Assembly: GCF_004010195.1 (NCBI RefSeq)
Contig: NC_057718.1
Span: 71,660,433 to 71,724,432, forward strand
Reading direction: 5' to 3'
Length of the DNA stretch: 64,000 nt
Source: Chiloscyllium plagiosum
Lineage: Eukaryota
In this document: piece after piece, positions 1-1,123 of the stretch
Layout: each line of letters starts with the position of its first letter
Position numbering within the stretch: the first letter of the stretch is position 1
Notes under the pieces: model-generated
Databases searched by the model: none
The model's input: only the letters and a program-made list of their open reading frames with translations
What the model was told of the DNA's origin: nothing
Translations under genes and position numbers: made by a program

Positions 1-376
1 ACCACCAGCAAGGACCTCAGCTACCGAATGGTCTTTAAAACTGCGTTTTCCTCAGTGTTGAGCGAAAACTCCCATGACTCCAAAGTGTTTGGGATATGGG
101 AGTGATTCAAACCTCCTAAAATCAGCAAGTTACAGATTGTAAATCAAAACCCTACACAGCAGAAACAGGACCTCATCTGGTCCCTCAAGTGAACCTGTTC
201 CTGCACTGTGATTGGCCACCTTTCTCCAAACCCTACTCGTCACTATGATTTGATCTCTCCCTGCCTCCTCAATCTCCCCACAACCTTCTAATCATGTTGA
301 CCAACCATTTCCAACTCCCCTCCTCCAAGTCCCTCCTCCCGCCCTTTTATCTTCTCCTGCTGGACACTCTCTGCTC

Positions 377-412
377 ATTCCTGAAGAAGGGCCTGTGCCC
401 GAAACGTCGAAT
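377..412 (+). ncRNA. Minimal type-I hammerhead ribozyme motif (copy 1 of tandem array)
   Basis: attc-CTGAAGA-a-gggc(ctgt)gccc-GAAA-c-GTC-gaat. Conserved core, 4-bp stem II, stem I attc/gaat, palindromic ACGT stem III. Predicted cleavage after C408. Confidence 0.8.
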
Positions 413-600
413 CTCCTGTTCCCTGGATGCTGCCTGACCTGCTGTGCTGTTCCAGCAATAAAGTTTCAACTTTGATCTCCAGCATCTGCAGATCTCACTT
501 TCTCCTCGAAGATTTCAACCTACTGCGAATCTTCTTACAAGGATGCCTTCCTTGAAGAAGCTCTCTGCCTCTCTCTACAAAGATCTAACACTCTCTGCTC

Positions 601-636
601 ATTCCTGAAGAAGGGCCTGTGCCCGAAACGTCGAAT
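601..636 (+). ncRNA. Minimal type-I hammerhead ribozyme motif (copy 2)
   Basis: Identical to 377-412; predicted cleavage after C632. Confidence 0.8.
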
Positions 637-1030
637 CTCCTGTTCCCTGGATGCTGCCTGACCTGCTGTGCTGTTCCAGCAATAAAGTTTCAACTTTGAT
701 CTCCAGCATCTGCAGACCTCACTTTCTCCTCGAAGATTTCAACCTACTGCTAATCCTCTTACAAGGATGCCTTCCTTGAAGAAGCTCTCTGCCTCTATTT
801 ATGACTTCACCAGTTTCTTCATCCCCCTCCCCCCCCCTTGTCTCAGCCGGATCCCTCCCGCCCGGCACCGCCTTCCTGGCCTGCAGTCTTCTTCTTGACC
901 TCTCCGCCTCCATCCTACTCCGACCTATCACCCTCACCTTGACCTCTTTCCACCTATCACATTTCCAACGCCCCTCCTCCAAGTCCCTCCTCCCTACCTT
1001 TTATCTTCTCCTGCTGAACACTCTCTGCTC

Positions 1031-1066
1031 ATTCCTGAAGAAGGGCCTGTGCCCGAAACGTCGAAT
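1031..1066 (+). ncRNA. Minimal type-I hammerhead ribozyme motif (copy 3)
   Basis: Identical to 377-412; predicted cleavage after C1062. Confidence 0.8.
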
Positions 1067-1123
1067 CTCCTGTTCCCTGGATGCTGCCTGACCTGCTGTG
1101 CTGTTCCAGCAATAAAGTTTCAA

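What the first reader, a model, noticed from the sequence alone, without database searches (positions are those of the whole stretch)
364..1123. Tandem array of three intact hammerhead ribozymes in sense orientation upstream of ACAT2 exon 2: a retrozyme-like circRNA generator?
Seen: three identical motifs attc-CTGAAGA-a-gggc(ctgt)gccc-GAAAC-GTC-gaat at 377, 601 and 1031, each followed by AATAAA (457, 681, 1111). The units differ at a few bases (gatctcac vs gacctcac; tgcgaatcttc vs tgctaatcctc), which argues against an assembly echo. Known: Penelope-like elements carry minimal type-I hammerheads whose palindromic stem III (here ACGT) lets them cleave as dimers, and tandem hammerhead repeats in metazoans can yield small circular RNAs. 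Inference: cleavage after 408, 632 and 1062 would release 224-nt and 430-nt monomers. The array is on the ACAT2 sense strand in the presumed first intron, so host transcription could both feed it and be cut or prematurely polyadenylated by it.
Basis: partly seen in the sequence, partly recalled or inferred. Interest (0 to 1): 0.75.

Follow-up and report, generated by a model that had tools for sequence, protein, structure and literature searches.

The report
Triple Penelope end-piece in shark intron
Three copies of a small hammerhead ribozyme motif sit head to tail just upstream of ACAT2 exon 2 in a shark-like genome; they are overlapping end-pieces of a common Penelope-type jumping gene, likely dropped there in one recent insertion and likely poor self-cutters, so this is an ordinary example of a known kind rather than a dedicated circular-RNA generator.

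Summary
The three motifs are real: cores at 381, 605 and 1035, predicted cuts after 408, 632 and 1062, AATAAA at 457, 681 and 1111. They are not a regular repeat. The 819-base block 306-1124 is three overlapping pieces, with different starts and ends, of the terminal region (pseudo-LTR) of a Penelope-like retroelement, with a 6-base direct repeat across both junctions. The same module has 17 further matches in the window; five consensus-core copies lie on the sense strand inside ACAT2 introns, and three copies join the end of a Penelope endonuclease frame. The motif fits the published minimal type-I hammerhead of these elements, which cuts weakly, as a dimer or with element protein. The active dimer fold is predicted 10.6-14.9 kcal/mol above the ensemble. 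AATAAA occurs only in these 3 of 20 copies. The proposed 632-to-409 junction test cannot tell circles from linear RNA within 129 bases. Units 1-2 do meet one preprint's operational definition of a retrozyme dimer, so a nascent retrozyme is not excluded. No read-level or RNA evidence was obtained. Verdict: new member of a known kind, low interest.

The parts
306..587 (+). Unit 1: end of Penelope 3' UTR (A, 306-363), hammerhead block (B, 364-470), then tail and likely ORF start (C, 471-587)
   Evidence: starts 75 nt before core C3, ends 117 nt past block B
588..796 (+). Unit 2: block B (588-694) plus a shorter C (695-796)
   Evidence: starts about 18 nt before C3, ends 102 nt past block B; 3 substitutions against unit 1
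797..1124 (+). Unit 3: last codons of the endonuclease frame and 3' UTR (D, 797-959), A (960-1017), block B (1018-1124), no tail
   Evidence: D matches copies at 23167-23211, 23785-23827 and 44639-44813 that overlap tblastn hits to C-termini of Penelope proteins
377..412 (+). Minimal type-I hammerhead motif 1; predicted cut after 408
   Evidence: helix I 4 bp, helix II 4 bp, extra A after A9, ACGU helix III without loop
601..636 (+). Minimal hammerhead motif 2; predicted cut after 632
1031..1066 (+). Minimal hammerhead motif 3; predicted cut after 1062
543..587 (+). Likely first codons of the element ORF (MPSLKKLSASLYK..), repeated at 767-796
   Evidence: resembles start peptides of full-length Penelope proteins; weak (best match in the first 130 aa for 14 of 46 proteins; 3 of 60 shuffles reached 14)
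457..462 (+). AATAAA (also 681 and 1111), a subfamily variant near the end of block B
   Evidence: present at this position in 3 of 20 copies, all in the array
302..307 (+). Left copy of a 6-base direct repeat (CAACCA) across the left junction; likely target-site duplication with microhomology
   Evidence: about 0.2% of random window sites give 6 or more
1121..1126 (+). Right copy of the same 6-base repeat across the right junction
1122..1600 (+). Right flank: decayed 3' part of an older LINE (relatives carry zf-RVT or RVT_1)
3016..3168 (+). Host ACAT2 coding exon 2 (tblastn span)

Best explanation
The block 306-1124 consists of three overlapping, head-to-tail pieces of the hammerhead-bearing end region of a Penelope-like retroelement, likely inserted recently in a single event into what is likely ACAT2 intron 1, and likely a passenger that cuts the host RNA little if at all. 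Shown: each unit is a contiguous stretch of one order of segments (ORF end, 3' UTR, hammerhead, tail, likely ORF start), with three different 5' ends and three different 3' ends. Inferred mechanism: the element's GIY-YIG endonuclease cut the target; reverse transcription began at the family's usual end (1124), ran 328 bases, then re-primed twice on template RNA just inside the ORF start (102 and 117 bases past block B), giving a partial-tandem insertion closed by a 6-base duplication. Successive insertions into its own pseudo-LTR would look similar. The ribozymes are intact because the insertion is young (7 substitutions among the shared segments) and comes from a subfamily with a fully paired 4-bp helix I, not because the locus is under selection. 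With a loop-less helix III they could cut only as dimers, probably slowly and perhaps only with element protein.
For: 17 other matches of block B in the window on both strands; the family covers 3535 bases, 5.6% of called bases. Segment D continues, in 3 neighbouring copies, into tblastn hits to C-termini of RT + GIY-YIG proteins. Of 19 other aligned pieces, 3 end within 2 bases of block B's end and 6 end 30-46 bases later, the optional 'tail' described in PMC8557442 and PMC11167929. PMC3846280 describes pseudo-LTRs that include the first 12-22 codons, as C seems to. Direct repeat across both junctions. Motif features match PMC4209133. Low activity of such motifs in print: weak even as dimers, none without protein for the anole element and no RNA-seq ends at its cut site, 1 of 9 Xenopus dimers cut. 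Dimer fold predicted 10.6 and 14.9 kcal/mol above the ensemble; helix I and III pair probabilities 0.04 or less.
Against: No tblastn hit of the 120 Penelope proteins falls in the array itself; the link to the ORF runs through neighbouring copies 66-88% alike. None of the 19 other pieces reaches beyond 46 bases past block B, so segment C's last 70 bases have no second copy here and their identity as ORF start is weak. Units 1-2 meet the operational retrozyme definition of bioRxiv 2026.07.22.740005. The array's helix I is fully paired, whereas 10 of 13 aligned copies are unpaired at that position, so these may cut better than most. ViennaRNA ignores Mg2+, tertiary contacts and proteins. Junctions and the empty site were not checked in reads; the left flank matches the right flank's LINE only over its last ~28 bases with one protein, and 0 of 6 proteins matched it above shuffles.
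Confidence: 0.84

Rival explanations
1. Nascent or dispersed non-LTR retrozyme: the 224-base B+C unit, born from a Penelope pseudo-LTR, is transcribed with ACAT2, cut by dimeric hammerheads and ligated into circles that can be copied again.
For: Two consecutive units with complete cores; isolated motif folds at -7.1 kcal/mol, passing the -5 cut-off of the 2026 preprint, which derives retrozymes from pseudo-LTRs and found them in its one chondrichthyan genome; 224 nt lies in the published monomer range; sense orientation; fully paired helix I.
Against: Unequal units (224, 430) with an ORF-end segment between them; only 1.9 copies; minimal rather than canonical ribozyme; GC 48% and 53% against below 45% in the PMC7229834 scheme; circles fold no better than shuffles (z -0.84, -1.04; weak, since that paper does not require a blocked fold); dimer fold unfavourable; none of 19 other pieces has the long C segment.
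Confidence: 0.08
2. Assembly artefact: a short-read assembler looped through the identical 107-base block and stitched pieces of different loci.
For: Block B is identical in all three units and belongs to a high-copy family; the window has 1353 N; PMC8557442 notes that such insertions trouble short-read assemblies.
Against: The unit junctions (587/588, 796/797) lie outside the shared block and are not explained by a loop through it; 7 substitutions in the flanks; the direct repeat across the outer junctions; 8 listed runs of organism A, from 2 studies, hold 53-79% of the sampled words of 1-3300 (this shows the locus, not the junctions, and one may be the assembly's source).
Confidence: 0.05
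3. Host co-option: the array attenuates ACAT2 by cutting or prematurely polyadenylating its pre-mRNA.
For: Sense orientation; three AATAAA; intronic hammerheads conserved in amniotes are cited as acting in mRNA biogenesis (passage in PMC7229834).
Against: Young insertion with no sign of selection; 43 AATAAA on this strand of the window; five more consensus-core sense copies in introns 2 and 3; intronic signals are generally suppressed by U1 snRNP (recalled, no call).
Confidence: 0.03

Closest known systems
Minimal type-I hammerheads (min-HHR) in pseudo-LTRs of metazoan Penelope-like elements (Cervera and de la Pena 2014, PMC4209133; read: parts 1-2 of 4)
   Same: Core boxes, an extra nucleotide between 9 and 10.1, G10.1-C11.1, palindromic 15.2-16.2 without loop 3, 4-bp helix I, mass occurrence as dispersed truncated copies
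   Different: Helix II is 4 bp (7-8 bp in the Schistosoma families described); three copies within 700 bases on one strand; sharks are not named in the parts read
Partial-tandem insertions of endonuclease-bearing Penelope-like elements, Neptune type (PMC8557442 and PMC3846280, passages; PMC11167929, parts 1-2 of 4)
   Same: 5'-truncated pieces head to tail, optional 30-46-base tail, pseudo-LTR reaching into the first codons, short target duplication or microhomology
   Different: No coding body: all three pieces are end fragments, so the insertion is non-autonomous; two pieces run about 60-70 bases past the usual tail
Metazoan non-LTR retrozymes (PMC7229834, passages and Discussion; bioRxiv 10.64898/2026.07.22.740005, parts 1-3 of 5)
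   Same: Type-I hammerheads in adjacent units of a few hundred bases; origin from Penelope pseudo-LTRs proposed
   Different: Unequal units, minimal rather than canonical ribozyme, higher GC, no evidence of a multi-locus unit or of circles

Membership tests
PLE minimal hammerhead | Conserved core CUGANGA / GAAA / UH | tested here: met
   3 of 3 units; 11 of 20 window copies
PLE minimal hammerhead | Extra nucleotide between 9 and 10.1; G10.1-C11.1 pair | tested here: met
   helix II 94% of cells paired in 13 copies
PLE minimal hammerhead | Palindromic helix III with no or tiny loop (dimer-only) | tested here: met
   ACGU, no loop; intermolecular duplex -3.1 kcal/mol
PLE minimal hammerhead | Short helix I (4-5 bp) with covariation | tested here: met
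   4 bp in the array; 3 of 8 pairs change on both sides in 13 copies, covariation score reached by 6 of 500 shuffles (relatedness inflates this)
PLE minimal hammerhead | Self-cleavage as a dimer | not testable with these tools
   Only folding energies
Penelope-like element end (pseudo-LTR) | Contiguous with an RT + GIY-YIG reading frame | tested here: met
   Through 3 neighbouring copies; no direct protein hit in the array
Penelope-like element end (pseudo-LTR) | Optional 30-40-base tail and partial-tandem arrangement | tested here: met
   3 of 19 other pieces end at block B's end, 6 of 19 at +30 to +46
Penelope-like element end (pseudo-LTR) | Target-site duplication or microhomology junction | tested here: met
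   6-base repeat across both junctions, 0.2% at random sites; empty site not seen
Penelope-like element end (pseudo-LTR) | Pseudo-LTR includes the ORF start | tested here: inconclusive
   similar start peptides, 3 of 60 shuffles as good
Neptune clade | CX2-5CxxC linker between RT and endonuclease | tested here: met
   Seen by eye in the frame 7847-8815 (-) of a neighbouring element; no tree built; the array itself lacks this part
Non-LTR retrozyme | At least two consecutive tandem units with complete hammerhead, motif MFE below -5 kcal/mol (2026 preprint) | tested here: met
   (units 1-2; 1.9 copies)
Non-LTR retrozyme | Uniform monomer repeated head to tail | tested here: not met
   224 and 430; three different 5' and 3' ends
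Non-LTR retrozyme | Canonical type-I ribozyme (6-bp helix I, looped helix III, loop 1-2 contacts); GC below 45% | tested here: not met
Non-LTR retrozyme | Same unit amplified at many loci | not testable with these tools
   No genome held; 0 of 19 other window pieces carry the full unit
Non-LTR retrozyme | Expressed as monomeric circular RNA | not testable with these tools
   No RNA reads were examined

The most novel reading that the evidence does not exclude
A retrozyme caught at birth: one Penelope insertion created a hammerhead dimer from a subfamily with a repaired helix I and a poly(A) signal, in sense orientation inside a housekeeping gene, so that ACAT2 transcription yields 224-nt (and 430-nt) self-cut RNAs or circles and loses some pre-mRNA. 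It would be a locus-resolved test of the proposed pseudo-LTR-to-retrozyme route in a shark.
Probability: 0.08. Interest if true: 0.55.

Novelty: new member of a known kind. Interest (0 to 1): 0.15.

Why it matters
As read here it matters little: it is one of very many Penelope end fragments. Its modest use is as a natural cis dimer/trimer of an intact minimal hammerhead with locus-specific marker bases, handy for asking whether such ribozymes cut in a host intron, and as a record of repeated re-priming just inside the ORF start. If circles were found, it would document how retrozymes arise from Penelope ends.

Tried and rejected
Rfam: 0 matches, so the library does not cover this minimal motif. 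Whole genome: none held, so no genome-wide count of the unit or its junctions. Sequencing runs: no RNA holder listed; 6 of 24 listed runs hold half or less at 0.33-0.35 (organism B), which does not tell whether the insertion is present there. No read-level check of junctions, empty site, RNA ends or poly(A) use was obtained. A 23-base search of metagenome contigs for the presumed ORF start gave 1 match (L001), a chance hit with no other likeness to the window or to Penelope proteins. An HMM of Penelope N-terminal domains (43 of 46 long proteins) found no copy in the window (best E 0.36). Special conservation of the hammerhead block: rejected (P 0.06-0.11). Left and right flank as one interrupted LINE: inconclusive. 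Simple DNA tandem duplication as the origin of units 1-2: less parsimonious, since it needs a further 15-base loss at the next junction (inference). Literature: searches for shark + Penelope + Chiloscyllium (1 paper, one passing mention) and hammerhead ribozyme + intron + retrozyme + shark (1 review, listing only) showed no description of this locus; the library lacks most subscription papers, and Lunse et al. 2016 was seen only as cited in PMC6765202 (passages). Supplements were not opened; those of the 2014 paper and the 2026 preprint may list shark families.

Full report
Observation. The three motifs are present as described: hammerhead cores at 381, 605 and 1035, predicted cuts after 408, 632 and 1062, hence 224- and 430-nt pieces, and AATAAA at 457, 681 and 1111. 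A 107-base block (B) is identical in all three. The seven substitutions between units lie outside it; this is not a significant excess of conservation once position 363 is counted with the three-copy region (P 0.06-0.11). Rfam finds nothing. The host gene is cytosolic acetyl-CoA acetyltransferase: exons at 3016-3168, 25489-25671 and 50803-50925 match bamboo-shark (Chiloscyllium, Hemiscyllium) proteins at 90-100%. Coding exon 1 was not found in the window, so the array probably lies in intron 1, on the sense strand; this is inferred.

Anatomy. The array is not a regular tandem repeat. Placed on one order of segments D-A-B-C, unit 1 is A-B-C117 (306-587), unit 2 is B-C102 (588-796) and unit 3 is D-A-B (797-1124): three different 5' ends (75, 18 and 238 bases before the core) and three different 3' ends. 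The predicted cut lies 45 bases inside unit 2, not at a unit border. A 6-base direct repeat straddles both outer junctions (302-307, 1121-1126); 0.2% of random window sites do as well. The right flank is an older LINE remnant; whether the left flank continues it is inconclusive.

Family. Block B has 20 matches in the window, 17 outside the array, on both strands; four of these are short matches (22-33 bases) to more distant families. The family covers 5.6% of called bases. Eight outside copies keep the consensus core, five of them on the sense strand inside ACAT2 introns 2 and 3 (23870, 28375, 28949, 33284, 40375). A decayed element at 7991-10131 (-) has reverse transcriptase (Pfam RVT_1, E 8e-06, below the curated cut-off); 3 of 4 of its full-length relatives scanned carry GIY-YIG, and a CX4CX2C linker suggests the Neptune type. 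The start of segment D matches three other copies that overlap tblastn hits to these proteins' C-termini, so D-A-B is the element's 3' end; no protein hit falls in the array itself. Of 19 other aligned pieces, 3 stop at the end of B and 6 stop 30-46 bases later, the optional tail described for these elements. Segment C holds an ATG whose peptide resembles starts of full-length relatives, weakly (14 of 46 proteins; 3 of 60 shuffles as good); pseudo-LTRs that include the first 12-22 codons are described in PMC3846280. AATAAA and the fully paired helix I mark the array's subfamily: AATAAA is in 3 of 20 copies, and the helix I position paired here is unpaired in 10 of 13 aligned copies (13 of the window's copies were aligned, the three identical array motifs counted once).

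Ribozyme. The motif has the features listed for Penelope minimal hammerheads in PMC4209133: extra base after A9, G10.1-C11.1, loop-less palindromic helix III, short helix I. It cannot close helix III alone. The double-hammerhead fold can be drawn for units 1+2 and 2+3 but lies 10.6 and 14.9 kcal/mol above the ensemble; helix II forms (mostly 0.8-0.9) while helices I and III do not (0.04 or less). This ignores Mg2+, tertiary contacts and proteins. Published activity is low: weak in dimers and trimers, protein-dependent in the anole element, with no RNA-seq ends at its cut site, and 1 of 9 Xenopus dimers.

Mechanism. Shown: nested pieces of one Penelope end region, junction repeat, many sister copies. 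Inferred: one target-primed insertion in which reverse transcription restarted twice on element RNA just inside the ORF start, or repeated insertion into its own pseudo-LTR (both tendencies are described); recent age; little cutting of host RNA. Untested: cleavage, circles, use of the poly(A) signals. No reads were examined, so junctions, the empty site and RNA ends remain open.

Comparison. It works like, and is a member of, the Penelope pseudo-LTR hammerheads. As a retrozyme it passes the operational test of the 2026 preprint (two units, motif at -7.1 kcal/mol) but fails uniform monomer length, canonical ribozyme and low GC. Since that preprint derives retrozymes from pseudo-LTRs, the array is at most a possible first step on that route.

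Earlier notes of this scan on the same genome (AI notes, leads only) read the dispersed copies the same way and report 5' ends clustering just upstream of the core. In my data four copies have alignment edges 4-9 bases before the core and unit 2 starts 18 before it, which is compatible but not a full test.

Verdict. Real, well explained, new member of a known kind. Interest 0.15; the nascent-retrozyme reading has about 8% probability and would merit about 0.55.

Noticed in passing
window 7991-10131 (-), with 10093-10257 (+): Decayed, mostly complete Penelope-like coding region (RT, CX4CX2C linker, GIY-YIG-type end) with a short inverted C-terminal piece at its 5' side.
   Followed up: partly
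window 28261-28465: Head-to-head inverted pair of hammerhead modules joined at the core, forming a palindrome.
   Followed up: no
window 53071-53344 (-) and 53867-54147 (+): Two closely related Penelope ends in inverted orientation on either side of an N gap; inverted pseudo-LTR or unresolved assembly.
   Followed up: no
window 40375 (+), about 51130 (-), about 51734 (+): A second, more distant hammerhead-bearing family with a 5-bp helix II; only the 40375 copy keeps the consensus core.
   Followed up: no
window 3016-3168, 25489-25671, 50803-50925: ACAT2 exons 2-4 are separated by repeat-filled introns of about 22 and 25 kb.
   Followed up: partly
window 2986-2991: A fourth AATAAA lies about 30 bases upstream of the exon 2 acceptor.
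   Followed up: no
window 1122-1600: Decayed 3' end of an older LINE (zf-RVT relatives) forms the right flank of the insertion.
   Followed up: partly
window 6963-7277, 7705-7972, 11527-11854, 13312-13614, 22232-22539, 33498-33799: A roughly 300-base SINE-like repeat family recurs on both strands; not identified.
   Followed up: no
window 15536-18195 (+): Frames resembling an L1-type endonuclease and reverse transcriptase (by eye), with a 164-base imperfect duplication at 15760-16050.
   Followed up: no
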